DNA of 64,000 bases, taken from a bacterium (GTDB taxonomy: Bacteria; UBA9089; JAHJRX01). Below, piece by piece: positions 5,841 through 64,000 of this stretch. Numbering within the stretch: the first letter of the stretch is position 1; every line of letters begins with the position of its first letter. The position numbers and the translations under genes were made by a program. Under the pieces are notes generated by a model. The model was not told the DNA's origin. It did no database searches and saw only the letters and a program-made list of their open reading frames with translations. The stretch spans positions 10,626-74,625 of the forward strand of contig JAHJRX010000045.1 of assembly GCA_018830565.1 (NCBI GenBank). The letters are read 5' to 3'.

Positions 5841-6010
5841 AAAATTTATTTTTAAAGACTAGAAAAATTATATCAGAAATAAAATTTTATGCCAACAAAA
5901 ATAACAAAAATGCGTGATTGCCTCTTCAAGGCTTGGTTCTTTTAATCTCTTTTGAGCAGTTAGCCAAACAATTATTAATCTATTTGAGGCAATGAGTTAA
6001 TCATTATAAA

Positions 6011-6105
6011 CCGGACATAGGAAATAATACCGAGCAATAAAAGATAAACTCATTGGCACTTAAATTAATTTGCTCTAAGTCAAATTTTCATTAATAGGTG
6101 CTATA
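6011..6105 (+). repeat. intergenic repeat element, copy A (family of at least 5 copies)
   Basis: About 95 bp nearly identical to 8026-8100 and 32704-32798; core hairpin AATTTG-CTCTAAGT-CAAATT. Confidence 0.8.
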
Positions 6106-6140
6106 ATTTGAATTAGTAAGTTATCTCATTCCCAAGAATC

Positions 6141-7937
6141 TTAAGTAATCTTATCTTTCAATATCGATAACATTTTCTTTAATCGATGAAGATAGGTATG
6201 TTCTTCCAAGACCTTTTTATGAAAAGCTTCAGCAATCTTCCTTCTTTCTTCTGGGTGGTAAAGAAAATAAATTATCTTTTCTCTTAACTCATTATTATTT
6301 TTATAAAAGATAACTTCTGTATCTTTGGAGAATAAATTAACTAAGTCTTCTCGATAATCGCTTAACATAAACCCACCACAACCACCTATATCAAATACTC
6401 GCATATTAATAGCTGTCCGAAGTTGAGAAACCGTAATATTTAAGTTTATCTCAGAGGCATTGTATAGTCTTGGTAATTCACTTCTATTGTGGATATAGCC
6501 ACCATACTTTACACCTTCTTGTTTAACTTCTAACCATCCTTTATCTCCATAAACTTTTACTCCGAGGTCAGCAATAGCTCTGATTGTATTTTTACGGTAT
6601 TTTCGCATGCTTATGCAATCAATAATTTCTAAATGATTAGAAACTCTTTCTTTTAAATATTCCTTATACTCAAGAGAAATATCCTTAATTACTCCTTCTT
6701 GCTCTTGAATATCTATTAATAGATCTAAGATAGATAGAGTAGGGTCTTGGCTTAATGTCTTTATTAACTTATCTACTACTTTTTTTGAAAACATTTCGTT
6801 AAAAAGGGCTCTGTGTTTTTTGTACATTTTAGTAGCATAAGGGTCAGCCAGCATTCCGGCAAAACTTATTCCACCTGCATATCTTTCTTTGTCTTCTTTA
6901 CTTAATTCCATCCTTTTAAAAATCTTTGGGTTAGTGGCCAAAGGAAGGTAGTAAACATGCTCATATCCCATATCGTTAAGTTCTTTAATATATGTTTTAT
7001 CCCACATAAATATAAAGAAAAGTGGATCTGGCTTAAAGATAGTAGAGATCGAAACAGGAGCATCTGCAAACCAGGAAACATAAGGGATTTTAAATCTTTT
7101 TATTACTTCTAAGATAAACTTTAAACCAACACAAGTAACGGTAAAAATAAAATTAGGCTTTATTTCCTCTATGGCTTTTTCTGCAATTAAAGCGATGTTT
7201 TTCTCATTTAAGAGATTTTTTTCTCTATCGAGGACAAACTTGTTTAAATCAATCACATATACTTCTTGATCTAATTCTGATAAAGCAGCTAAAGAATCTT
7301 CTAAAATATATCTTGTTCCACTTAAACGAAAGTCCATAAAAGAGATGATCTTTAATCTTTTTTTAAGAGTCGTTATTTGGTGGTAAGCTGATTCTAAAAT
7401 CATCTTTTCTAATTTGAGGTAATAATCAGGAAAGGCTCTTTGGCAACCTTCGGTAGAAATTACTTTCGTATTTCCTATGCTTCCTATCAAGTTAAAAGAT
7501 TCTTCAATTTCAAGGCCGGCCAAAAGTCTTACTTTTGTCGAAGTAAGAAGATCTTTGTAATCGAAGAGATAAAGGGAATGGTAGAATAATTCTACCTCTT
7601 TCTCGATGACCACTATTTCTTGAAAAGGCTTGACTCTTTTCATTAATTCAAAGAGTACATAGCCAAAACCTAACCCTAATAAGATAATCTTTTGACAAGT
7701 TTCAAATTCTATCCTGGAGAATGTTTTTTCTGCTTCCCGAGATGGATTAATAGGACTATGTATCCAGATAAGTGCTTCTTTTTCATCAGGGTATTGACCA
7801 GTAATTTGAAGATTCTTGGCTGGTTTTATAATAGCCAGGGGAGTAGCTTTATTAAGCTTTTCTATCTTTTGGAATAAAACCGGTTCCTTTTCTTTAAGGA
7901 GAATGAGGTTTTTTTCTAAGTATTGAGAAGCTTCCAT
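6141..7937 (-). CDS. glycosyltransferase: Maf-like N-terminal Rossmann-type region plus CgeB/DUF3880-type (GT1-like) C-terminal domain
   Basis: N-terminal IILLGLGFGY resembles the Maf N-terminal motif; C-terminal VFDIGGCGGFMLSDYREDL...EEHTY matches the CgeB-family GT domain; bracketed by repeat copies A and B. Confidence 0.5.
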   Translation of the reverse strand: MEASQYLEKNLILLKEKEPVLFQKIEKLNKATPLAIIKPAKNLQITGQYPDEKEALIWIHSPINPSREAEKTFSRIEFETCQKIILLGLGFGYVLFELMKRVKPFQEIVVIEKEVELFYHSLYLFDYKDLLTSTKVRLLAGLEIEESFNLIGSIGNTKVISTEGCQRAFPDYYLKLEKMILESAYHQITTLKKRLKIISFMDFRLSGTRYILEDSLAALSELDQEVYVIDLNKFVLDREKNLLNEKNIALIAEKAIEEIKPNFIFTVTCVGLKFILEVIKRFKIPYVSWFADAPVSISTIFKPDPLFFIFMWDKTYIKELNDMGYEHVYYLPLATNPKIFKRMELSKEDKERYAGGISFAGMLADPYATKMYKKHRALFNEMFSKKVVDKLIKTLSQDPTLSILDLLIDIQEQEGVIKDISLEYKEYLKERVSNHLEIIDCISMRKYRKNTIRAIADLGVKVYGDKGWLEVKQEGVKYGGYIHNRSELPRLYNASEINLNITVSQLRTAINMRVFDIGGCGGFMLSDYREDLVNLFSKDTEVIFYKNNNELREKIIYFLYHPEERRKIAEAFHKKVLEEHTYLHRLKKMLSILKDKIT

Positions 7938-8025
7938 CTTAAGACCTGAAGTCTAATGATATAATAATAGTATAATTAAATAATATTATAATTAAAGATA
8001 CTATAGTAATTATTAACAAAAATTA

Positions 8026-8100
8026 GACATAGGAAATAATGCCGAGCAATAAAAGATAAACTCATTGGCACTTAAATTAATTGGCTCTAAGTTAAATTTT
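8026..8100 (+). repeat. intergenic repeat element, copy B
   Basis: Near-identical to copy A over about 75 bp; lies in the divergent promoter region between the 6141-7937 (-) and 8260 (+) genes. Confidence 0.8.
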
Positions 8101-8259
8101 AACTAATGAGTATTATATCACAAAAATTTTATAAATAAGTAGAATTGCTGTGCAATTTTCATATTTAGCTTGACAAATTCTAAAAAAACTTGCTTATTTA
8201 AAAATAATTTAGTATACTTTATAAAAGTAAAAGTTTTTGAAAGGAAACTTTAAGCTACC

Positions 8260-9668: not shown

Positions 9669-9742
9669 TGGGGAGTCGTCTAGGGGTAGGACACAAGACT
9701 CTGGATCTTGCTGCGAGGGTTCGAATCCTTCCTCCCCAGCCA
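9669..9742 (+). tRNA. tRNA-Gln (anticodon CTG)
   Basis: Hand-folded cloverleaf: acceptor TGGGGAG/CTCCCCA, 3-bp D stem typical of tRNA-Gln, anticodon stem CAAGA/TCTTG with loop CTCTGGA, T-loop TTCGAAT, CCA encoded. Confidence 0.8.
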
Positions 9743-9747
9743 AAAAA

Positions 9748-9823
9748 GGCGCTATCGTCTAGAGGCCTAGGACAGGTGGTTCTCAGCCATCAGACCGGGG
9801 TTCGAATCCCCGTAGCGCTACCA
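9748..9823 (+). tRNA. tRNA-Glu (anticodon CTC)
   Basis: Acceptor GGCGCTA/TAGCGCT (G1-U72 wobble), D arm TCGTCTAGAGGCCTAGGAC as in bacterial tRNA-Glu, anticodon loop TTCTCAG, T arm CGGGG-TTCGAAT-CCCCG, CCA encoded. Confidence 0.8.
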
Positions 9824-31659: not shown

Positions 31660-32697
31660 ATGAATAAAATAATCTTTCGAACTGATGGAGGGGGGAATGT
31701 TGGGTTAGGACATCTTAGTCGGTGCCTAAGCCTAGCTGAAAGCTTAAAGGAAAAAGGTATCAAGTGTGTATTTGCCACCAAGGATATTGATTCAAAGATA
31801 GGAGGAATGATTGTTAGTAATGGTCACTTAATAGAAAAATTACCCTCAGAAATAAGCTTAGAAGAAGATTTAAACTTAACTATTAATTTGATTAAAAACA
31901 TCCGCCCTGATTTGGTAATTACTGATTCTTATGAGATTGATCAGTCTTATCTTGAACAATTAAAAAAATTAAATATTATTTTGATGAGTATCGATGATTT
32001 GGCAAAGTTGCATTTCTGTTCTGATATAGTGCTTAATCAAAACATTGGTGCCCAAAATAGTGATTATTCGATAGAAAAATATACCAAGCTATTGTTAGGA
32101 CCAGAATATGCCCTTTTAAGGAAGAAGGCTAGGGATAAACAGGGACTTAAGGAGATAAAAGAAATAGCTAAGAATATCTTGATCACCCTTGGTGGAACCG
32201 ATCCAGATAATCAAACCCTAAAAATAGTTAAGGCACTTAAGGATATCAAGAATAATATTGTGGTTACTGTGATTATGGGGCCTCATTATCAATACGAAGA
32301 ACTTCTTAGAAAAGAGATTGGAGTAAGTAACCAATTTTTCCTTGTGAGTGACCCTCAAGATATCTTTGACTTAATGGAAAAGGCAGATATGGCCGTCAGT
32401 GCCGGTGGGAGTACCTGCTATGAATTGGCCTATCTTGGGGTACCGAATATCATTATGGTCATGGCAGATAACCAGAAAAAGATTGCCGAGGAATTAGATA
32501 GCTACGGCACCTCTATAAACTTGAATTGGTTTGAAGATGTTACTGAAGAATATATCAAAAAGGCAGGAGAAAATTTGATTAAAGATAGAAATAAACGAGA
32601 AAAGATGAGCACGAAAGGCAGAGAGTTAGTTGATGGAAGAGGCGTAGAGAGGGTAGTAGAGGAGATTACAAAGCAAATCAATAGAGTTAGTTATTAA
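31660..32697 (+). CDS. pseG: UDP-2,4-diacetamido-2,4,6-trideoxy-beta-L-altropyranose hydrolase (PseG, GT28/MurG-like fold)
   Basis: N-terminal FRTDGGGNVGLGHLSRCLSLAESL matches the PseG signature. Confidence 0.75.
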   Translation: MNKIIFRTDGGGNVGLGHLSRCLSLAESLKEKGIKCVFATKDIDSKIGGMIVSNGHLIEKLPSEISLEEDLNLTINLIKNIRPDLVITDSYEIDQSYLEQLKKLNIILMSIDDLAKLHFCSDIVLNQNIGAQNSDYSIEKYTKLLLGPEYALLRKKARDKQGLKEIKEIAKNILITLGGTDPDNQTLKIVKALKDIKNNIVVTVIMGPHYQYEELLRKEIGVSNQFFLVSDPQDIFDLMEKADMAVSAGGSTCYELAYLGVPNIIMVMADNQKKIAEELDSYGTSINLNWFEDVTEEYIKKAGENLIKDRNKREKMSTKGRELVDGRGVERVVEEITKQINRVSY

Positions 32698-32703
32698 CGA
32701 AAA

Positions 32704-32798
32704 CCGGACATAGGAAATAATACCGAATAACAAAAGATAAACTTGTTTGGAGTTAAATTAATTTGCTCTAGGTCAAATTTTCATTAATAAGTGCTATA
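32704..32798 (+). repeat. intergenic repeat element, copy C (between pseG and pseI)
   Basis: About 90% identical to copies A and B; hairpin stem retained, loop base changed. Confidence 0.8.
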
Positions 32799-32819
32799 GA
32801 GAGTCAATAGAGAAGAGCG

Positions 32820-44975: not shown

Positions 44976-45338
44976 ATGACTATGAGCCATAATCTTCAAA
45001 GACATTTAAGAGTAGCAGAACTTATCAAAGAAGAGATTAGCACTTTAATTGTTACTAAAAAGATAAAGGATCCTCGAATTGGCTTTGCTACAGTCACCAA
45101 GGTAAAACTTTCTAAAGACTTAAAAAATTGCGATGTCTTTATAAGTATTTATGGAAATGAAGAAGAGATAAAAAGGACTTTAGAAGGACTATCTCAAGCT
45201 AAGGGATTTATTAAGGGTCAAATAGCTAAAAATCTTAACCTCAGATGTATTCCTTTCATCAACTTTAAACATGATTTATCTATAGAATACAGTGATCATA
45301 TTCTAAAGATTATCGAGGGGCTGAATATTCCTAAATGA
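44976..45338 (+). CDS. rbfA: ribosome-binding factor A
   Basis: KH-like RbfA fold motif; conserved position after infB. Confidence 0.8.
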   Translation: MTMSHNLQRHLRVAELIKEEISTLIVTKKIKDPRIGFATVTKVKLSKDLKNCDVFISIYGNEEEIKRTLEGLSQAKGFIKGQIAKNLNLRCIPFINFKHDLSIEYSDHILKIIEGLNIPK

Positions 45339-45571
45339 ATACTTCCGAAAGAGAGATAGATGGAGTACTAATAGATTGATGGTCTAAATATTCCTAAAGG
45401 AGTATATTCCTAAATGAATACTTCCAAAAGAGAGATAGATGGAGTACTAATAGATTGATGGTCTAAATATTCCTAAAGGAGTATATTCATAAATGAATAC
45501 TTCCAAAAGAGAGATAGATGGAGTACTAATAGATTGATGGTCTAAATATTCCTAAAGGAGTATATTCCTAA
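45335..45571 (+). repeat. 79-bp tandem repeat x3, duplicating the rbfA stop/truB start junction (each unit carries an RBS, an ATG and a 14-codon mini-ORF)
   Basis: Units start at 45335, 45414 and 45493, about 97% identical; the genuine truB start at 45572 repeats the first 37 nt of each unit. Confidence 0.85.
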
Positions 45572-46306
45572 ATGAATACTTCCGAAAGAGAGATAGATGG
45601 AGTACTAAATATTTATAAGTCTCAAAATTTGACCTCTCATGATGTTATCGTAAAATTAAGAAGACTCATCAAGATAAGAAAAATTGGACATACCGGAACT
45701 TTAGACCCTCAAGCTACTGGTGTCCTTTTAATTTGCCTCGGTCAAGCTACTAAACTTTCAAGTTGGTTATCTTCTAAAGGGAAAGAATATATTGCTGGAA
45801 TGAAGATAGGGGTTGTTACTGATACCCAGGATATTTGGGGAAGCATTCTTAGTAAAAAAGAACCAGTTAATTTAAAAGAAGAGCAAATAAAAGAAGCATT
45901 TTTACGTTTTACTGGAGAAATAACTCAGGTTCCTCCTATGTATTCTGCCGTTAAGTGGAAAGGAAAAAAGTTATATCAATTGGCCAGGAAGGGGTATATA
46001 GTAGAAAGAGTTCCGCGTAAAGTAATGATAAGCTCTTTAGAATTAATAAGCTATCAAGAAGATTCCTATCCAGAGGTAGTATTTAAAGTAAGTTGCTCTA
46101 CTGGAACTTATATTAGGACTTTATGTGAAGATATAGGTAACTATTTAGGATATGGAGGATGTTTGTCTTCTCTTGTCAGAACTAGGATTGATTCATTTCT
46201 TCTTGAAGACACCCTCACTTTAGAAAAACTTACTAAAATCATAGAAAATGACCTTCTTTTTAATTACTTAATACCCATAGAAAAAGTGTTAAATGGCTTC
46301 TCATGA
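45572..46306 (+). CDS. truB: tRNA pseudouridine(55) synthase
   Basis: GHTGTLDPQATGVLLI catalytic motif. Confidence 0.85.
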   Translation: MNTSEREIDGVLNIYKSQNLTSHDVIVKLRRLIKIRKIGHTGTLDPQATGVLLICLGQATKLSSWLSSKGKEYIAGMKIGVVTDTQDIWGSILSKKEPVNLKEEQIKEAFLRFTGEITQVPPMYSAVKWKGKKLYQLARKGYIVERVPRKVMISSLELISYQEDSYPEVVFKVSCSTGTYIRTLCEDIGNYLGYGGCLSSLVRTRIDSFLLEDTLTLEKLTKIIENDLLFNYLIPIEKVLNGFS

Positions 46307-47444: not shown

Positions 47445-47714
47445 ATGGTCTTAGCTTTAGAAGATAAGAAAAACATTATTGAAAAATTTAAGCAACATGA
47501 AAGCGACACTGGTTCACCAGAAGTTCAAATTGCTATACTTAGTGCTCGCATTAGTTATTTAACGGAACATTTTAAAGTTTATCCTAAAGACCATCATTCT
47601 CGAAGAGGATTACTTAAGCTTGTTTCTCAAAGGAGAAGTCTTTTGGATTATTTAAAGAAGAAAGATAGTAATCGTTATCTTGTTCTTATCAAGAAACTAA
47701 ATATACGAAAGTAA
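47445..47714 (+). CDS. rpsO: 30S ribosomal protein S15
   Basis: 89 aa; GSPEVQIA and HHSRRGLL motifs; precedes pnp. Confidence 0.9.
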
Positions 47715-47822
47715 AAGAAAGATAGGAATCGTTATTCTTTATCAAGAAACTAAATATACGAAAGTAAAAGAAAGATAGGAATCGTTATTCTTTATCAAGA
47801 AACTAAATATACGAAAACAAAA
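47659..47822 (+). repeat. tandem repeat of about 53 bp x3, derived from the rpsO 3' end, in the rpsO-pnp intergenic region
   Basis: Native rpsO tail (58 bp) followed by two near-identical 53-bp copies starting at 47717 and 47770. Confidence 0.8.
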
Positions 47823-47835
47823 GAAAGGATTTTAC

Positions 47836-53120: not shown

Positions 53121-53313
53121 AAATCGCTTACTTGTTTATTTATTCCTTATCTGATTGGAGTGATAAGTATCTTGTTTTTGGCACGGGACTAGAATCTGTT
53201 TTGTAAAATCTCATAATGAGAATTGCTGTTAATAACTACTATATTGTTGCTTTAAATTAACAACATTCATTAGTTCCATAAAACTTTATTTATTATAGAG
53301 AAATATTTAAGTT

Positions 53314-56357: not shown

Positions 56358-56966
56358 ATGAGTGTAGCTAATATCTTAACTCTTACTAGAGTTTTACTTG
56401 TCCCACCATTCTTATACTTTATTTCCTGTAAGAGTTTCTTTTTTCAAAACGTGGCTTTATTTATCTTTATCTTAGCCGCCGTAACTGACATGTTAGATGG
56501 ATATTTTGCCAGGCGGAATAAGATTATTACTAACTGGGGAAAATTTATGGACCCCTTAGCTGATAAAATATTAATTTCTGCTGCTTTTATCTCATTCGTG
56601 AGTATTCCTTCTTTATATATTCCTGCTTGGATGGTGGTTTTAATTATTAGTAGAGAATTTATTATTACTGGCCTGCGATTAATTGCCAGCAATGAAGGAA
56701 CGGTAGTAGCTGCTTCTATGGAAGGCAAAGTAAAGACTACTTCTCAAATTATAACTATTATTGCCATTTTGCTTCTCCTTACCTTCAAAAGTTATCTTAA
56801 TCAAGATAATATTTATCAAAGTTTAAGTTACGAACCGAGACTTTTTATAGAGTATATTTTTCACTTACTTCCTTACTCTTTAGTTCTCGCCACTACCTTC
56901 TTTACTTTATATTCAGGAGTAAGTTATCTTATTGAGTATAAGGACTTAGTTTGTGATTTAAGATAG
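56358..56966 (+). CDS. pgsA: CDP-diacylglycerol--glycerol-3-phosphate 3-phosphatidyltransferase
   Basis: CDP-alcohol phosphatidyltransferase motif DGYFAR...G...DPLADK. Confidence 0.75.
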   Translation: MSVANILTLTRVLLVPPFLYFISCKSFFFQNVALFIFILAAVTDMLDGYFARRNKIITNWGKFMDPLADKILISAAFISFVSIPSLYIPAWMVVLIISREFIITGLRLIASNEGTVVAASMEGKVKTTSQIITIIAILLLLTFKSYLNQDNIYQSLSYEPRLFIEYIFHLLPYSLVLATTFFTLYSGVSYLIEYKDLVCDLR

Positions 56967-57068
56967 CCAGTCTTTTATTATCTATAAGGACTTATTTTGG
57001 GATTTAAGATAGCCAGTCTTTTATTATCTATAAGGACTTATTTTGGGATTTAAGATAGCCAGATCTTT
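56931..57068 (+). repeat. 46-bp tandem repeat x3 spanning the pgsA stop / pgpA start junction
   Basis: Units at 56931, 56977 and 57023; the third unit carries a 1-nt insertion and substitutions that create the pgpA reading frame. Confidence 0.8.
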
Positions 57069-57522
57069 TATTATCTACTTGGCTTCTTTGTCTTTTGTAG
57101 GATATTTTCCTTTTTTTCCTGGAACACTGGGAACTTTATTAGCTTTGTTGGCTTATCTATATTTATCTAAGGTTACCTTAAGTGTTTTTTGGTATGGTTT
57201 AATCTTAGTTTCATTAATATTGATCGGTGTTCTTATCTGTCATTTAGCGGAAAAATTTTTAAGCGAAAAGGACCCACCCCAAATAATCTTAGATGAATTT
57301 TTAGGATATCTAGTGGCTGTTTTCTTAATTCCCTTTGACCTAAGAAATATAGTTGCTTCTTTCCTTTTGTTTCGATTTTTAGACATAAGTAAACCTTTTT
57401 TTATAAAGAAACTTCAAAATATCTCAGGAGGAATAGGGATCTTAGCTGATGATTTAGCCGCTGGAATAATAACTAATTTAATTCTTCGCCTAAGTCAGTT
57501 ACTTGAGAAATTAATTAAATAA
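57043..57522 (+). CDS. pgpA: phosphatidylglycerophosphatase A
   Basis: PgpA-family motifs (FPGTLGTLLA, DEFLGY); TTG start inside the third repeat unit. Confidence 0.6.
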   Translation: MGFKIARSFIIYLASLSFVGYFPFFPGTLGTLLALLAYLYLSKVTLSVFWYGLILVSLILIGVLICHLAEKFLSEKDPPQIILDEFLGYLVAVFLIPFDLRNIVASFLLFRFLDISKPFFIKKLQNISGGIGILADDLAAGIITNLILRLSQLLEKLIK

Positions 57523-59514: not shown

Positions 59515-60507
59515 ATGCCCGGAGAAAAAATCTTAATTGTTGACGATGATCTAGAAATAGCTTTGGTCTTGAAAGCAATCTTTGAAAAAGAGAACTTTAG
59601 GCCTTATGCAGTTAATAATGGAAAGGAAGCTGTGGAATTAGCCAGGACATTATTTCCAGATCTAATTATTTTAGATATCCTTATGCCTAAGATTAGTGGT
59701 TATGAGGTATGTAAAAAACTACGGCATGATTTTCATACCAGTCATATTCCCATTATTGTTTTATCCGTTAAAGATCATACTCTTGACAAGATCAAAGGAT
59801 TAAAGATAGGAGCAGATGATTATGTCACTAAACCATTTAGTAGTGAAGAATTAGTAGCTCGGATTAAAGCGGTCTTACGTCGGACTCATTTAGAAAGGGA
59901 TTGTAACCCTTTAACTCAATTACCAGGAAATCTGGCGATTGAACATCAAATTAAGAATAGATTAAACTTAGGATTGCCCTTTGGTTTTATGTATGCAGAT
60001 TTAGATAATTTTAAACCTTTTAATGATTATCATGGATATAGTAGGGGAGATTTAGCCATTAAACTTTTAGCTAATATTATCTTAAGTTCGATAAAAAAGC
60101 ATGGAAATTTGGATGACTTTGTAGGTCATATCGGGGGAGATGATTTTATTATTATTACCCGAAAGATAGAGTCTATCGAGGATATTTGTAAGAATATTAT
60201 CGAGAATTTAAAAGTATCTTCCCTTGATCTCTTTGGCCAAAAAGATCGTCAGCAAGGCTATTTTGAAATACTTGATCGCCGAGGAAATGCTAAAAAGTTT
60301 CCTGCCCGTTTAGACATTACTATTGCTATTACCTCTAACCAATATGCAAGCTTTACTAACTCTTTACAGATTAGTGATACTTTAGCTGAAATAAAGAAGT
60401 ATGGCAAACAAGTAGAAGGAAGTGTTTTCATTATTGATCGCAGGGAAAAAAAGAAAATTACTAAACTTACAGATGTTATAGTACCGATTAATGAAAATTT
60501 GACTTAG
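59515..60507 (+). CDS. response regulator with REC domain plus GGDEF-type domain carrying a GGDDF motif (paralog 1)
   Basis: REC motifs DDD/D53-like/K; GGDEF-domain landmarks NPLTQLPGN, ADLDNFKPFNDYHGYSRGD, GHIGGDDF. Confidence 0.7.
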   Translation: MPGEKILIVDDDLEIALVLKAIFEKENFRPYAVNNGKEAVELARTLFPDLIILDILMPKISGYEVCKKLRHDFHTSHIPIIVLSVKDHTLDKIKGLKIGADDYVTKPFSSEELVARIKAVLRRTHLERDCNPLTQLPGNLAIEHQIKNRLNLGLPFGFMYADLDNFKPFNDYHGYSRGDLAIKLLANIILSSIKKHGNLDDFVGHIGGDDFIIITRKIESIEDICKNIIENLKVSSLDLFGQKDRQQGYFEILDRRGNAKKFPARLDITIAITSNQYASFTNSLQISDTLAEIKKYGKQVEGSVFIIDRREKKKITKLTDVIVPINENLT

Positions 60508-60545
60508 AGCAAATTAGTTTGACTCCAAACGAGTTTATCTTTTAT
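60486..60545 (-). repeat. intergenic repeat element, copy E (reverse orientation), overlapping the last 7 codons of paralog 1
   Basis: Reverse complement matches the core of copies A and C, including the AATTTG-CTCTAAGT-CAAATT hairpin. Confidence 0.75.
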
Positions 60546-60576
60546 TACTTAATATCATTATTCCAAAACAACTACT

Positions 60577-61536
60577 ATGCCATTTCAAAAGGATAATATG
60601 GCTGGCGAATTAATATTATTAGTAGATGATGAAGTAGATATGCTTAATCTTTTAAAAAGCTTCTTCATGGAAAATGGTTATTCCTGTATAGAAGCTCAAA
60701 GCGGTATTCAAGCTCTTGAAATTGCTCGAATGATTCATCCTGATTTGATTGTTTTAGATATTATGATGCCTCATATGGATGGCTTTGTTGTATGTCAAAA
60801 GCTAAAGAATGATTATGTGACCAGTCATATTCCTATTGTGCTTCTTACTGTAAAAAGAGAAACTTCTGATCGGGTAAAAGGCTTAGAATTAGGGGCTGAT
60901 GATTATATAGCTAAACCATTTGATCTTTCTGAGCTCTTGGCTCGAGTTAAAGCGGTCTTACGTCGGACTCATTTAGAAAGGGATTGTAACCCTTTAACTC
61001 AATTACCAGGAAATCTGGCTATTGAACATCAAATTAAGAATAGATTAAAGAATGATACTCCTTTTGCCTTTTTATATGCCGACATAGATGATTTTAAGTT
61101 TTTTAATGATTATTATGGATATAGTAGGGGTGATTACGCCATTAAGACTTTTTCTAATGTGATCTTGTCTTCGATAAGAAAGCACGGAAGTTCAGAGGAT
61201 TTTGTAGGTCATATCGGGGGAGATGATTTTATTGTTATTACTAAGTTAGAGGCAGCTATTGACATTTGTAAAGACATTATTGAAAATACTGCCTTTTCTA
61301 TACCTCAATTATTTGATGAAGAAGATCTAAAGAGAGGTTATTTTGAAACCTTGACCCGAAGAGGAAAGAAAAAAGTTGCTGCTAATCTTACCGTGACTAT
61401 TGCAGTAACTACTACTGAATACAGTCAGTTTGAAAATTCCATGGAAATAAGTAGCATCTTAGCAGCGCTAAAACGTTATGGGAAGAACAAAGGTGGCAAT
61501 CTTTATGTAGTAGATCGGCGAAAAAAAGTTAGATAG
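60577..61536 (+). CDS. REC-GGDEF(GGDDF) response regulator, paralog 2
   Basis: Same architecture as paralog 1; shares a 100-nt near-identical patch with paralog 1. Confidence 0.7.
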   Translation: MPFQKDNMAGELILLVDDEVDMLNLLKSFFMENGYSCIEAQSGIQALEIARMIHPDLIVLDIMMPHMDGFVVCQKLKNDYVTSHIPIVLLTVKRETSDRVKGLELGADDYIAKPFDLSELLARVKAVLRRTHLERDCNPLTQLPGNLAIEHQIKNRLKNDTPFAFLYADIDDFKFFNDYYGYSRGDYAIKTFSNVILSSIRKHGSSEDFVGHIGGDDFIVITKLEAAIDICKDIIENTAFSIPQLFDEEDLKRGYFETLTRRGKKKVAANLTVTIAVTTTEYSQFENSMEISSILAALKRYGKNKGGNLYVVDRRKKVR

Positions 61537-61570
61537 GGATAGATAGAGATTAGATAGGAGTGGAAAAGGT

Positions 61571-62506
61571 ATGGATAAAGAGACGATCTTAATTGTGGAT
61601 GATGATCTTGATTTAACTGAAATCCTAAAAACTGTTTTACAGAAAAAAGGTTATAAAACCCTTATTGCGGAAAATGGTTTTTTAGCCTTGGAATTAGCCT
61701 TTAATCATAACCCATCTTTAATCTTGTTAGATGTGATGATGCCTGAGTTAGATGGCTTTGGAGTATGTCAAAAACTAAGAGATAATTTTTATACCAGTCA
61801 TATTCCTATCATTATGTTAACTTGTCGGGAGGAGTTAGAGAGTAAAGTTAAAGGACTTACTTTAGGAGCAGATGATTATGTAACTAAGCCTTTTAATTTT
61901 TCAGAGCTTTTAGCTCGCATTAAAGCTGTCTTAAGACGAACCCATAGGGAACGAGGTTCTAATCCTTTAACAGCTTTACCAGGGGGCAACTTAATTGAAG
62001 AACAAATAAAGAAGAGATTAAGGGAAGGTAAATATTCAGCTTTCTTATATTTAGACTTAAATTACTTCAAGGCTTATAATGATTATTATGGATACAAGAG
62101 AGGTGATCAGGTTATTAAGCATCTGGCTGAAGTTTTGCTTACCGCAATTGAGAAAGATAAAGATAGGGATGATTTTGTTGGTCATATCGGGGGAGATGAT
62201 TTTATTATTATTACTACTCCTCAAAAATCAGAAGTATTAGCTAATCAAATTATTAAGAAGATAGAAGAGACTTCTCACCAGTTTTTTGAGGATCGGGATT
62301 TAAAGGCTAGGTCTATTGAGATTAAGACTCGATCAGGGGAGGTAAATAAGTATCCGGCCAAAATTACTGTTACCATCGGGGGTATTTCTAGTCAAGATCT
62401 GAATATAAAGAGCCATATTCAGGTAAGTGATTCCTTAGCAGAAATTAAGCGATATTTAAAGAAAAAAGAAGGAAGTAATTTTATGGTAGAGAGAAGAAAA
62501 ATTTAA
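61571..62506 (+). CDS. REC-GGDEF(GGDDF) response regulator, paralog 3
   Basis: Same architecture as paralogs 1 and 2; more divergent. Confidence 0.7.
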   Translation: MDKETILIVDDDLDLTEILKTVLQKKGYKTLIAENGFLALELAFNHNPSLILLDVMMPELDGFGVCQKLRDNFYTSHIPIIMLTCREELESKVKGLTLGADDYVTKPFNFSELLARIKAVLRRTHRERGSNPLTALPGGNLIEEQIKKRLREGKYSAFLYLDLNYFKAYNDYYGYKRGDQVIKHLAEVLLTAIEKDKDRDDFVGHIGGDDFIIITTPQKSEVLANQIIKKIEETSHQFFEDRDLKARSIEIKTRSGEVNKYPAKITVTIGGISSQDLNIKSHIQVSDSLAEIKRYLKKKEGSNFMVERRKI

Positions 62507-62541: not shown

Positions 62542-63252
62542 ATGATTATTGCGCAGCAAAAACCAATTCAAGAAATAGAGGCGATGGTGGCTGGTTACCA
62601 GAAAATTTTAGTGGTTGGTTGTGGTACTTGTGTTACAGTTTGCATGGCTGGTGGAGAAAAGGAAGTAGGCATTATGGCTTCTTGTTTACGAATGTCCTTA
62701 AGATTGGCTGGGAAAACCCCAGAAATTATTGAGGAATGTATTCAACGGCAATGTGAGTGGGAATTTGTAGATGAGTTAAAGGATAAAGTAGCCAGGGTAG
62801 AAGCCATAATTTCTTCTGCTTGTGGAGTAGGAGTACAAGCACTGGTGGAACGATTTAGTAATAAGCCAATTTATCCAGCTCTTAATACCAGCTTCATGGG
62901 ACTTCCCCAAGAGCCTGGTTTTTGGTTAGAAACCTGTCGGGGTTGCGGAAATTGTGGCTTAGGTAAATTTGGCGGTATTTGTCCTATTGCTCGTTGCTCA
63001 AAGACATTACTTAATGGTCCTTGTGGTGGCAGCCAGAATGGTAAATGCGAGATAGATAAAGAGATGAATTGCGGCTGGCAGTTAATCTACCAACGACTAA
63101 AAGCATTAGGGCAGATTAATCAGATAGAGGAGATAGTTTTACCTAAAGATTGGTCCACAGATAGAGATAAAGGACAACGAAGGATAGTCAGAGAAGATGT
63201 CTATTCTAATAGTTATAACGAAAACCAGACATTAAGAAATAATACCAAGTAA
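62542..63252 (+). CDS. metV: MetV-like protein (methylenetetrahydrofolate reductase C-terminal-domain / zinc-ribbon iron-sulfur protein)
   Basis: Cys-rich motifs GCGTCVTVCMAGGE and CRGCGNCGLGKFGGICPIARCSK; immediately precedes metF. Confidence 0.6.
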   Translation: MIIAQQKPIQEIEAMVAGYQKILVVGCGTCVTVCMAGGEKEVGIMASCLRMSLRLAGKTPEIIEECIQRQCEWEFVDELKDKVARVEAIISSACGVGVQALVERFSNKPIYPALNTSFMGLPQEPGFWLETCRGCGNCGLGKFGGICPIARCSKTLLNGPCGGSQNGKCEIDKEMNCGWQLIYQRLKALGQINQIEEIVLPKDWSTDRDKGQRRIVREDVYSNSYNENQTLRNNTK

Positions 63253-63256
63253 TAAA

Positions 63257-63338
63257 AAATAAACTTCAAGGGCTACCTTGTTTGGAGTTAAAAATTAATT
63301 TGCTCTAGATCAAATTTTTTCATTAATAGGTGCTCTAT
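63257..63338 (+). repeat. intergenic repeat element, copy D, abutting the metF start codon
   Basis: Matches the 3' two-thirds of copies A to C; hairpin stem intact, loop base changed. Confidence 0.75.
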
Positions 63339-64000
63339 ATGAACAGACCGTTTAAGGAAGTTCTAAAATCAGGTGAGTTTGTAGTTACTTCAGAGATTGG
63401 GCCTCCCAAAGGAACTAATATTGAGAAGATGATGCATCACATAGAGATGCTAAAGGATAAAGTCCATGGAATGAATGTGACCGATAATCAATCGTCAGTG
63501 ATGAGGCTTTCTTCTTTGGCCACCTGCCATCTCATTAAAGACCACGGCGGTGAGCCCATTTTGCAAATGACTTGTCGTGATCGTAATCGGATGGCTTTAC
63601 AATCTGATTTGATTAGTTCTCATGTTTTAGGTGTTCATAATGTTCTTTGTCTGACTGGCGACCATATCAGTTTGGGTGATCATAAAGGAGCTAAACAAGT
63701 CTTTGATTTAGATTCAGTTCAATTGATTACTACAGTAAGGACATTGGAGCAAGGTAGAGATATTGGTGGAAACGCCCTTGATGGAACAGTAGAGTTTTGT
63801 CTGGGGGCTACGGTTACACCTGAAGCTGATCAGATGGAATCACAATTATTAAAGTTTCGCAAAAAAGTTAAAGCTGGGGCAGAGTTTTTCCAGACTCAAG
63901 CAGTTTATGATCTGAATAAACTAAGGATGTTCACGGAGTATGCCCATCAATTTAAGGTAAAGATCTTAGCCGGAATTTTAGTTCTTACCTCGGCAGGTAT
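63339..64000 (+). CDS. metF: methylenetetrahydrofolate reductase, N-terminal part (3' end outside the window)
   Basis: ATG at 63339 with an open frame to the window edge; TIM-barrel MTHFR pattern (EIGPPKG, LQMTCRDRN, CLTGDH); not in the ORF track because no stop lies inside the window. Confidence 0.7.
   Translation, partial: MNRPFKEVLKSGEFVVTSEIGPPKGTNIEKMMHHIEMLKDKVHGMNVTDNQSSVMRLSSLATCHLIKDHGGEPILQMTCRDRNRMALQSDLISSHVLGVHNVLCLTGDHISLGDHKGAKQVFDLDSVQLITTVRTLEQGRDIGGNALDGTVEFCLGATVTPEADQMESQLLKFRKKVKAGAEFFQTQAVYDLNKLRMFTEYAHQFKVKILAGILVLTSAG

What the first reader, a model, noticed from the sequence alone, without database searches (positions are those of the whole stretch)
63257..63341. Repeat copy fused directly to the metF start codon
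Copy D ends ...AGGTGCTCTAT immediately before the metF ATG, so the repeat's AGGTG supplies the Shine-Dalgarno at 6-nt spacing. A repeat acting as a portable 5'-UTR/RBS module on metF, pseI and (in the copy B position) the B12-rSAM gene would be an unusual way to wire a regulon.
Basis: inference. Interest (0 to 1): 0.5.

Follow-up and report, generated by a model that had tools for sequence, protein, structure and literature searches.

The report
Small transposon supplies metF ribosome site
The repeat fused to the metF start codon is one copy of a roughly 116-base non-coding mobile element that landed in the overlap between two genes, and its end now sits where the ribosome-binding site should be; this is a known kind of side effect of such elements, not a system for co-regulating genes.

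Summary
AGGTG (63328-63332) lies 6 nt before the metF ATG (63339-63341) and belongs to a repeat. The repeat actually begins at 63207, inside the upstream gene metV, not at 63257.

- Its consensus is about 116 nt, with imperfect terminal inverted repeats of about 31 nt (24/31).
- Six of the 13 distinct full copies have TA on both flanks.
- The window holds five copies plus one solo end. Eight further distinct full copies lie on related metagenome contigs. Copies occur in both orientations.

Relatives without the element show the empty site. Their metV and metF overlap by 17 nt (…TATTATGAA…). The window has exactly 133 extra nt there, which is the 131-nt element plus a duplicated TA whose A is the A of the metF ATG. 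The insertion moved the native GGAGG 133 nt away, gave MetV a 15-residue foreign tail, and put the element's AGGTG at ribosome-binding distance.

A second, independent copy does the same upstream of a histidine-kinase gene.

Across all copies there is no constant spacing (0 to 140 nt). Five copies point away from any gene start, and the downstream genes are functionally unrelated. The "portable RBS regulon module" reading is therefore rejected.

The closest known elements are the Neisseria Correia elements and pneumococcal RUP. This is a new member of a known kind and of modest interest.

The parts
63207..63337 (+). MITE copy D. It is 131 nt long because it carries private indels. Its left end lies inside metV and its right end abuts the metF ATG.
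   Evidence: nhmmer hit at 63204-63338, E 3.8e-24. Alignment with the other copies. blastn against the element-free relatives L042 and L043 breaks exactly here, with 133 extra nt in the window.
63338..63339 (+). Right copy of the duplicated TA target. A63339 is the A of the metF ATG. The left copy is at 63205-63206 and now reads TC.
   Evidence: The empty site in L042 is ...GTTTAT-TA-TGAAAA.... The window reads ...GTCTAT-TC-[element]-TA-TGAACA.... 133 extra nt equals the 131-nt element plus 2.
63328..63332 (+). AGGTG within the right terminal inverted repeat, 6 nt upstream of the metF ATG. It is the presumed Shine-Dalgarno sequence of metF.
   Evidence: Sequence. Duplex energy with a standard anti-SD is -8.0 kcal/mol. 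AGGA/AGGAG-type motifs are enriched upstream of this organism's genes, so it uses SD sequences. Function is inferred, not measured.
63339..64000 (+). metF (methylenetetrahydrofolate reductase, PF02219). The 5' part runs off the window.
   Evidence: Gene call and Pfam on the parent contig L001. Orthologue alignment.
62542..63252 (+). metV (MTHFR C-terminal domain protein, PF12225). The last 15 codons and the stop (63207-63252, NSYNENQTLRNNTK*) are encoded by the element.
   Evidence: Homologues are 222-226 aa and end ...REDVYYEKTV. The window protein is 236 aa with an unalignable tail.
63190..63197 (+). Position of the ancestral metF Shine-Dalgarno (GGGAGGAT in relatives). Here it reads AGAGAAGA and lies about 140 nt from the ATG.
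   Evidence: Alignment of the window with L042 and L043. Duplex energy is -10.4 and -12.7 kcal/mol in the relatives against -4.6 here.
63267..63279 (+). A 13-nt insertion (CAAGGGCTACCTT) private to copy D. It creates a 5-bp GC-rich hairpin just after the metV stop.
   Evidence: Alignment. It is also present in the 98.8 % identical strain L023. It is flagged as terminator-like on the minus strand only.
5988..6106 (+). MITE copy A. It lies between two minus-strand genes, so there is no gene downstream on its strand.
7999..8119 (+). MITE copy B, 140 nt upstream of the B12-binding radical-SAM gene (ATG 8260).
32684..32799 (+). MITE copy C, between the pseG-like gene (whose stop lies in the left inverted repeat) and the pseI/neuB gene (ATG 32820, 20 nt away).
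60475..60581 (-). MITE copy E, antisense between two plus-strand REC-GGDEF genes. It supplies the C-terminal tail of ORF 59515-60507.
53228..53243 (-). Solo 16-nt left terminal repeat (TATAGTAGTTATTAAC), identical to the consensus end. It is probably the remnant of a sixth copy.

Best explanation
[quoted passage not shown] Its consensus is about 116 nt: TATAGTAGTTATTAACGAAAACCGGACATAGG ... CTAGGTCAAATTTTCATTAATAAGTGCTATA.

Copy D inserted at the TA of ...TAT-TA-TG..., exactly where the ancestral metV and metF genes overlapped by 17 nt and were presumably translationally coupled. The insertion had four effects:
1. It duplicated the TA, so the metF ATG was rebuilt from the right-hand copy.
2. 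It separated metF from its native GGAGG, which lay inside metV, by 133 nt.
3. It let metV read 15 codons into the element before reaching a stop.
4. It placed the element's terminal AGGTG 4-6 nt upstream of the ATG.

MetF is therefore most likely still transcribed with metV from an upstream promoter, and is now translated from an element-derived Shine-Dalgarno sequence.

Shown here: the element's anatomy, its multicopy dispersal, the empty site and the displacement of the native SD. Inferred: that AGGTG is used by ribosomes, that metV and metF are co-transcribed, and that the strain difference in spacing (4 nt in L023, 6 nt here) and the weakened inverted-repeat pairing in this copy are adaptive tuning.
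For: Element anatomy and copy number:
- Terminal inverted repeats match at 24 of 31 positions.
- TA flanks on both sides are present in copies B, L007, L018, L021, L024 and L028.
- The window holds five copies and a solo end. Eight further distinct full copies lie on related contigs. Both orientations occur.
- Canonical full copies fold into a stem between the two inverted repeats, with z-scores from -2.4 to -4.05.

Empty site at metV-metF:
- About 120 MetV homologues are 222-226 aa. The closest (80-82 % identity) end ...REDVYYEKTV.
- In L042 and L043 metV and metF overlap by 17 nt and no repeat is present.
- Deleting the element and one TA from the window predicts ...REDVYYEQTV* with the same 17-nt overlap (sequence).
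- blastn shows 133 extra nt in the window at exactly this point.

Shine-Dalgarno energetics:
- Native site in relatives: -10.4 and -12.7 kcal/mol.
- Remnant of the native site here: -4.6 kcal/mol.
- Element AGGTG here: -8.0 kcal/mol.
- Canonical element end (AAGTG): -1.7 kcal/mol.

Second independent case: the element at L011 1805-1920 lies between an NtrC-type regulator gene and a histidine-kinase gene, with AGGTG 7 nt before the ATG. Relatives L044, L045 and L046 have an 8-10 nt spacer and no element.

Against: - No transposase-bearing parent element with matching ends was found in the roughly 400 kb examined, so mobility is inferred from comparative data only.
- The element-free relatives are different species (about 77 % DNA identity), not strains of the same population.
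- The left copy of the TA at site D reads TC. Copy L011a lacks TA flanks altogether.
- AGGTG is also present in copies where it cannot serve as an SD (A, L020, L031), so it need not have been selected at metF.
- The predicted cost of opening the SD region is higher than in element-free relatives: 6.3 against 3.0-4.5 kcal/mol.
- No expression data exist.
Confidence: 0.85

Rival explanations
1. The repeat is a dedicated portable 5'-UTR/RBS (or promoter-RBS) cassette that places metF, pseI, the radical-SAM gene and others under common control. This is the first reader's reading, and it would be analogous to Neisseria REP2/CREN repeats.
For: Two copies (D and L011a) put AGGTG at SD distance from a start codon. 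About 10 of 15 classifiable copies point towards a downstream gene. REP2 shows that such modules exist (PMC3184786).
Against: - Spacing ranges from 0 to 140 nt.
- Five copies are antisense or convergent (A, E, L011b, L018, L021).
- Most copies carry AAGTG, AAGCG or GAGTA rather than AGGTG.
- Genes 14-33 nt downstream have their own SD, for example L017 AGGTGA and L006 GAAGGAG.
- Downstream genes are functionally unrelated.
- The 10:5 orientation ratio is not significant.
- The element has terminal inverted repeats and TA flanks, which REP2 lacks.
Confidence: 0.04
2. The element is a MITE whose main retained effect is transcriptional. Its right end would carry an outward-reading promoter completed by flanking sequence, as with the 'Black' promoter of Correia elements, and would drive the downstream genes.
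For: - Several copies end TGCTATA followed by AT or AA, which creates an extended -10-like TGnTATAAT (A, L007, L009, L021).
- Three right-half-only remnants (L006, L009, L031) all lie upstream of co-oriented genes.
- Correia elements provide the precedent (PMC2649163).
Against: - The sigma-70 scan finds no promoter at the right end of any window copy. It finds only a weak TTAAC(G/A)-N16-AATAAT in the left end of B and C, and total hits do not exceed those in shuffled sequence.
- There is no good -35 at 17 nt.
- At metF a promoter at the element's end would start transcription inside the coding sequence, so it cannot explain copy D.
- The apparent sigma-54-like TGGCAC...TTGC in copies A and B has the wrong spacing: 15 nt between GG and GC rather than 10 (sequence).
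Confidence: 0.1
3. The element acts at the RNA level. When transcribed inside operons, its two inverted repeats pair into a long hairpin that sequesters the SD or is cut by RNase III, as shown for Correia elements. This would uncouple or down-tune the downstream gene. It is compatible with the MITE origin.
For: - Canonical copies fold into an inverted-repeat stem, with z-scores from -2.4 to -4.05.
- In L011a the AGGTG is buried in that stem, with an opening cost of 13 kcal/mol.
- Precedent comes from Correia elements (PMC2649163).
Against: - The metF copy in the window does not fold better than shuffled sequence (z -0.13).
- There is no Rfam family hit.
- Folds of partial copies are not significant.
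- No compensatory-change analysis was possible, because the copies are paralogous insertions.
Confidence: 0.15

Closest known systems
Correia repeat-enclosed elements (CREE/NEMIS) of Neisseria
   Same: - Both are small (about 70-157 bp) non-coding elements with inverted-repeat ends of about 26 bp that begin TATAG and end CTATA.
- Both show TA target duplication.
- Both occur as many dispersed copies in both orientations, often next to or overlapping gene starts. In one CREE the final A is the A of an ATG.
- Both can be transcribed as hairpins (PMC2649163, PMC5039591).
- The left end here (TATAGTAGTTATTAACGAAAACCGG) matches TATAGTGGATTAACAAAAACCGG at 21 of 23 positions with one 2-nt gap. Only 1 of 2000 shuffles scored as well.
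   Different: - The host is an unassigned, 33 % GC uncultured bacterium from groundwater-type metagenomes, not Neisseria.
- The right end matches the Correia repeat poorly.
- The internal sequence is unrelated.
- No convincing IHF site or end promoter was found.
- Background window sequence scores nearly as high against the Correia repeat (24 against 26), so the end similarity may be convergence or chance.
RUP (repeat unit of pneumococcus) and other IS630/Tc1-mariner-derived bacterial MITEs
   Same: The size is about 107-116 bp, the element is AT-rich with terminal inverted repeats and is intergenic and multicopy (PMC3049150). TA-dinucleotide target duplication is typical of the IS630 family; this point rests on established knowledge, not on a test here.
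   Different: For RUP a matching IS (IS630-Spn1) is known. Here no parent IS was found, so the transposase family is unknown.
Neisseria REP2/CREN and Borrelia IR repeats (promoter + RBS + ATG modules)
   Different: REP2 has no terminal inverted repeats and keeps a fixed relation to the ORF. The element here has inverted repeats, TA flanks, variable spacing and both orientations.

Membership tests
Bacterial MITE (non-autonomous element with terminal inverted repeats) | Terminal inverted repeats | tested here: met
   24 of 31 terminal positions are complementary in the consensus. The ends are conserved across copies while the flanks diverge immediately.
Bacterial MITE (non-autonomous element with terminal inverted repeats) | Target-site duplication | tested here: met
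   TA is present on both flanks in 6 of the 13 distinct full copies. At site D the window has the element plus exactly 2 extra nt relative to the empty site. Exceptions: the left TA of D now reads TC, and L011a has GA and TC.
Bacterial MITE (non-autonomous element with terminal inverted repeats) | Small, non-coding, multicopy, dispersed in both orientations | tested here: met
   The element is 116 nt. The window holds 5 copies and a solo end in 64 kb. A further 8 distinct full copies and about 5 partial copies lie on related contigs.
Bacterial MITE (non-autonomous element with terminal inverted repeats) | Presence/absence polymorphism (empty sites) | tested here: met
   The metV-metF junction is empty in L042 and L043. 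The regulator-kinase junction is empty in L044, L045 and L046. These relatives are other species, not strains of the same population.
Bacterial MITE (non-autonomous element with terminal inverted repeats) | A cognate autonomous IS with matching ends | tested here: inconclusive
   A fuzzy search for both inverted repeats in all fetched DNA found only pairs about 116 nt apart or solo ends. There was no plasmid-database match.
Correia repeat-enclosed element | 26-bp Correia inverted repeat TATAG[CT]GGATTAAC/AAAAA(CCGGTAC|TCAGGAC) at both ends | tested here: inconclusive
   The left end matches at 21 of 23 positions with a 2-nt gap. The right end aligns over only 11-12 nt. The score is only slightly above the window background.
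Correia repeat-enclosed element | Residence in Neisseria genomes | tested here: not met
   GC content is 33 %. The closest named RecA relatives are only about 70-73 % identical and belong to several phyla. The contig is a metagenome assembly.
Correia repeat-enclosed element | End-generated sigma-70 promoters or an IHF site | tested here: inconclusive
   The promoter scan is not above the shuffled expectation. By eye, the IHF consensus WATCAANNNNTTR is matched only partly, by AGTCAAATTTTCA.
REP2/CREN-type promoter-RBS-ATG repeat | Fixed position immediately upstream of ORFs, with the RBS and ATG inside the repeat | tested here: not met
   Spacing ranges from 0 to 140 nt and 5 copies are antisense or convergent.
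Structured regulatory RNA (riboswitch, leader or sRNA family) | Match to a curated covariance model, or a fold better than shuffled sequence at the metF copy | tested here: not met
   The only Rfam hits in the window are two tRNAs. Copy D has z -0.13.

The most novel reading that the evidence does not exclude
This MITE family may be built so that it can sit inside tight operon junctions. Read inward from either end, the canonical terminal repeats close all three reading frames within about 30 nt. The right end carries an A(A/G)GTG that is one transition away from a Shine-Dalgarno sequence. An insertion at a TA overlapping a start codon would then terminate the upstream gene and re-initiate the downstream one, and two independent copies do exactly this. 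In addition, the Correia-like end sequence in a phylogenetically remote bacterium may mark the same, still unidentified, transposase lineage that mobilises the Neisseria Correia elements.
Probability: 0.12. Interest if true: 0.55.

Novelty: new member of a known kind. Interest (0 to 1): 0.25.

Why it matters
This is a clean, base-pair-resolved example of a mobile element rewiring translation. It breaks an overlapping, coupled gene pair (metV-metF of the C1/Wood-Ljungdahl-type reductase), replaces the native ribosome-binding site and remodels a protein C-terminus. It also matters for annotation: the MetV tail, the tail of the first REC-GGDEF gene (59515-60507) and several stop codons in this genome come from the element. 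At roughly one copy per 10 kb, the family is probably a major driver of rearrangement in this uncultured lineage. It does not reveal a new regulatory principle.

Tried and rejected
- **Rfam:** a scan of the whole window found only two tRNAs.
- **Partial-copy folds:** RNA folds of partial copies were not significant, so the riboswitch or sRNA idea was dropped. Full-length canonical copies do form an inverted-repeat stem.
- **Sigma-70 scan:** the promoter and terminator scans around all window copies found nothing above the shuffled expectation at the right end.
- **Sigma-54:** the TGGCAC...TTGC reading of copies A and B was rejected because 15 nt, not 10, separate GG and GC.
- **Reference genomes:** the scan for the core motif returned one chance hit (Ca. 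Tenebribacter, flanks unrelated), so the organism is not among the species representatives.
- **Parent IS:** a search for inverted repeats at IS-like spacing found nothing.
- **Plasmid database:** the consensus gave no match.
- **Upstream extension:** an attempt to extend the contig upstream returned only a 1.8-kb contig.
- **Phylum assignment:** RecA did not resolve the phylum. The closest named hits are about 70-73 % identical across several phyla.
- **AGGTG and fused copies:** AGGTG is present in both fused copies, but it occurs in only 2 of 5 AGGTG copies at SD distance against 0 of about 11 others. My own Fisher estimate is p about 0.08, which is not significant.

Full report
**What is at the coordinates.**
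- The intergenic stretch between the metV-like gene (62542-63252, PF12225) and metF (PF02219) reads ...TCATTAATAGGTGCTCTATATGAAC....
- AGGTG occupies 63328-63332, followed by six bases and then the ATG at 63339-63341.
- That ATG is the start called on the parent contig. It is also the start conserved in orthologues: MNRPFKEVL... here against MKKPFKEVL... in a relative.
- The window comes from an 88.9-kb metagenome contig (ENA ERZ27247117 k141_265102) of a 33 % GC uncultured bacterium.
- Its RecA has no named relative closer than about 73 %.

**The repeat family.**
- Repeat finding, alignment and a profile-HMM search give five copies in the window: A 5988-6106 (+), B 7999-8119 (+), C 32684-32799 (+), D 63204-63338 (+) and E 60475-60581 (-). 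E-values run from 1e-23 to 1e-35.
- A solo 16-nt end lies at 53228-53243 (-).
- A scan of JGI metagenomes with the conserved core returned 37 loci. Most true hits come from three sister samples (Ga0180007/8/9), which also hold 98-99 % identical versions of parts of the window.
- After removing duplicates, these loci add eight distinct full copies and about five partial ones. L005 and L023 are versions of the window's own loci.

**Anatomy: a MITE.**
- The 116-nt consensus begins TATAGTAGTTATTAACGAAAACCGGACATAG and ends CTAGGTCAAATTTTCATTAATAAGTGCTATA. The two ends are reverse complements at 24 of 31 positions.
- Sequence similarity between copies stops abruptly outside these ends.
- Six copies have TA immediately outside TAG...CTA on both sides.
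- Full-length canonical copies fold, as RNA, into a stem between the two inverted repeats, with z from -2.4 to -4.05.
- There is no Rfam match.
- No pair of ends at IS-like spacing, and so no parent transposase gene, was found in any DNA fetched.

**The empty site at metV-metF.**
- About 120 MetV homologues are 222-226 aa long and align to only 93-94 % of the 236-aa window protein. The closest (80-82 % identity) end ...REDVYYEKTV.
- On their contigs, metV and metF overlap by 17 nt and there is no repeat. L042 reads GGGAGGATGTTTATTATGAAAAAACCGTTTAAAG.
- The window reads GAAGATGTCTATTC[element]TATGAACAGACCGTTTAAGG.
- Removing the element and one of the flanking dinucleotides restores ...GAT GTC TAT TAT GAA CAG ACC GTT TAA. 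This gives a MetV ending ...REDVYYEQTV* with the same 17-nt overlap with metF.
- blastn confirms that homology to both relatives breaks exactly here. The window carries 133 extra nt, equal to the 131-nt element plus 2.
- The element therefore inserted at the TA of TAT-TA-TG and duplicated it. The A of the metF ATG comes from the right-hand copy.

**Consequences for metF.**
- In the relatives, the metF Shine-Dalgarno is GGAGG inside metV, 9 nt before the ATG. Its predicted duplex with a standard 16S 3' end is -10.4 and -12.7 kcal/mol.
- In the window that position now reads AGAGAAGA (-4.6 kcal/mol) and lies about 140 nt from the ATG.
- The element's AGGTG gives -8.0 kcal/mol. The family's commonest end, AAGTG, gives -1.7 kcal/mol.
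- This organism does use SD sequences. AGGA occurs upstream of 19 of 47 long-ORF first starts, against 3.5 expected.
- The narrow claim that the repeat supplies the SD of metF is therefore well supported at sequence level, although it is untested experimentally.
- The 98.8 % identical strain L023 has AGGTGCTATATG (4-nt spacing). The window has an extra CT (6 nt) and a G-to-A change in the left inverted repeat.
- The window copy no longer folds better than shuffled sequence (z -0.13, against -1.63 in L023). This may reflect tuning, but that is inference.
- The predicted cost of opening the SD-start region (6.3 kcal/mol) is still higher than in element-free relatives (3.0-4.5 kcal/mol).

**A second, independent case.**
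- On contig L011 a copy lies between an NtrC-type response-regulator gene and a histidine-kinase gene (Pfam).
- The regulator's stop lies in the left inverted repeat. AGGTG lies 7 nt before the kinase ATG, and the ATG is 3 nt from the element's end.
- Three relatives (61-69 % identity) have only an 8-10 nt spacer and no element.
- In this copy the SD is buried in the inverted-repeat stem, with an opening cost of 13 kcal/mol.

**The regulon-module idea fails its own test.**
- For copies that point towards a downstream gene, the distance from the element's end to the start codon is:

| Copy | Distance (nt) |
|---|---|
| D | 0 |
| L011a | 3 |
| L017 | 14 |
| C (pseI) | 20 |
| L006 | 33 |
| L009 | 49 |
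| L024 | 68 |
| L028 | 79 |
| B (radical SAM) and its allele L005 | 140 and 139 |

- Copies A, E, L011b, L018 and L021 face the 3' end of a convergent gene or lie antisense between co-directional genes.
- Genes 14-33 nt away have their own SD.
- The downstream genes are MTHFR, NeuB/PseI, B12-radical SAM, a histidine kinase, a nucleotidyltransferase, a SIS-CBS isomerase, an Rnf subunit and CorA. They show no functional coherence.
- Repeats that really are promoter-RBS-ATG modules for co-regulated genes are known (Neisseria REP2, Borrelia IR; PMC3184786). They lack inverted-repeat ends and keep a fixed position.

**Other effects of the family.**
- The element supplies the stop codon of the pseG-like gene (copy C).
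- It supplies a 15-residue tail to MetV (copy D).
- It supplies the C-terminal extension of the first of three tandem REC-GGDEF paralogues (copy E, antisense).
- Copies A and B are direct repeats flanking a 598-aa Maf-type glycosyltransferase gene. In a 98-99 % identical strain (L005) there is one hybrid copy and no such gene. The pattern fits recombination between the copies.

**Comparison with known elements.**
- The closest described elements are the Correia repeat-enclosed elements of Neisseria. They share TATAG...CTATA ends, TA duplication, a size of about 70-157 bp, both orientations, frequent positions next to starts, hairpin transcripts, and promoters generated at their ends (PMC2649163, PMC5039591).
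- The left end here matches one Correia repeat variant at 21 of 23 positions with a 2-nt gap. Only 1 of 2000 shuffles reached that score. However, unrelated window sequence scores almost as high and the right end matches poorly. I treat the resemblance as a lead, not as evidence of membership.
- RUP of pneumococcus (107 bp, linked to IS630-Spn1; PMC3049150) is the other close analogue.
- No outward promoter could be supported.

**Verdict.** The feature is a new family of a well-known kind of element in an uncultured lineage, with a particularly clear empty-site reconstruction. Interest is modest.

Noticed in passing
window 45325-45608, 47658-47827 and 56937-57077: Three intergenic tandem arrays (79 nt x3.6, 53 nt x3.1 and 46 nt x3.0; 93-98 % matches) each end at or overlap the start of the next plus-strand gene (starts at 45572, 47836 and 57043). 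The 79-nt unit itself contains AAAGGAGT-N10-ATG and a short ORF, so the gene's SD and start are tandemly repeated.
   Followed up: partly
window 5988-8119 compared with L005: MITE copies A and B are direct repeats flanking a Maf/glycosyltransferase gene (6141-7937, minus strand). A 98-99 % identical strain has a single hybrid copy and lacks the gene, which indicates repeat-mediated deletion or insertion inside a flagellin-glycosylation-type island.
   Followed up: partly
window 59515-62506: Three tandem paralogous response-regulator-GGDEF genes are 67-81 % identical at DNA level. The first carries a C-terminal extension of about 15 residues that is partly encoded by the antisense MITE copy E.
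   Followed up: partly
window 63267-63279: Copy D carries a private 13-nt insertion that makes a 5-bp GC hairpin (CAAGG-GCTA-CCTTG) 14 nt after the metV stop. It is shared with strain L023. Whether it has any function, for example partial termination or RNA stabilisation, is unknown.
   Followed up: no
L021, L024 and L011 (element flanks): In three copies the sequences just outside the element are reverse complements of each other: TCTTTA/TAAAGA, GATA/TATC and CTGA/TCAG. This suggests insertion into palindromic target sites. In L011a it lengthens the inverted-repeat stem.
   Followed up: no
L011 1770-1797 compared with 1853-1880: The 3' end of the NtrC-type regulator gene (AAAAGATAAACTCTTTGGGTATAAA) is nearly identical to the interior of the adjacent MITE copy. 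That copy's variable segment (GGGTAT) is unique in the family. This may reflect local gene conversion and remains unexplained.
   Followed up: partly
window 53228-53243 (-) and L006 1682-1741 (-): A solo 16-nt left terminal repeat and a left-half copy of the element are present. They are remnants of decayed insertions.
   Followed up: partly
window 9669-9820: Two adjacent tRNA genes lie directly after the B12-radical-SAM gene. They are the only Rfam hits in the window.
   Followed up: no
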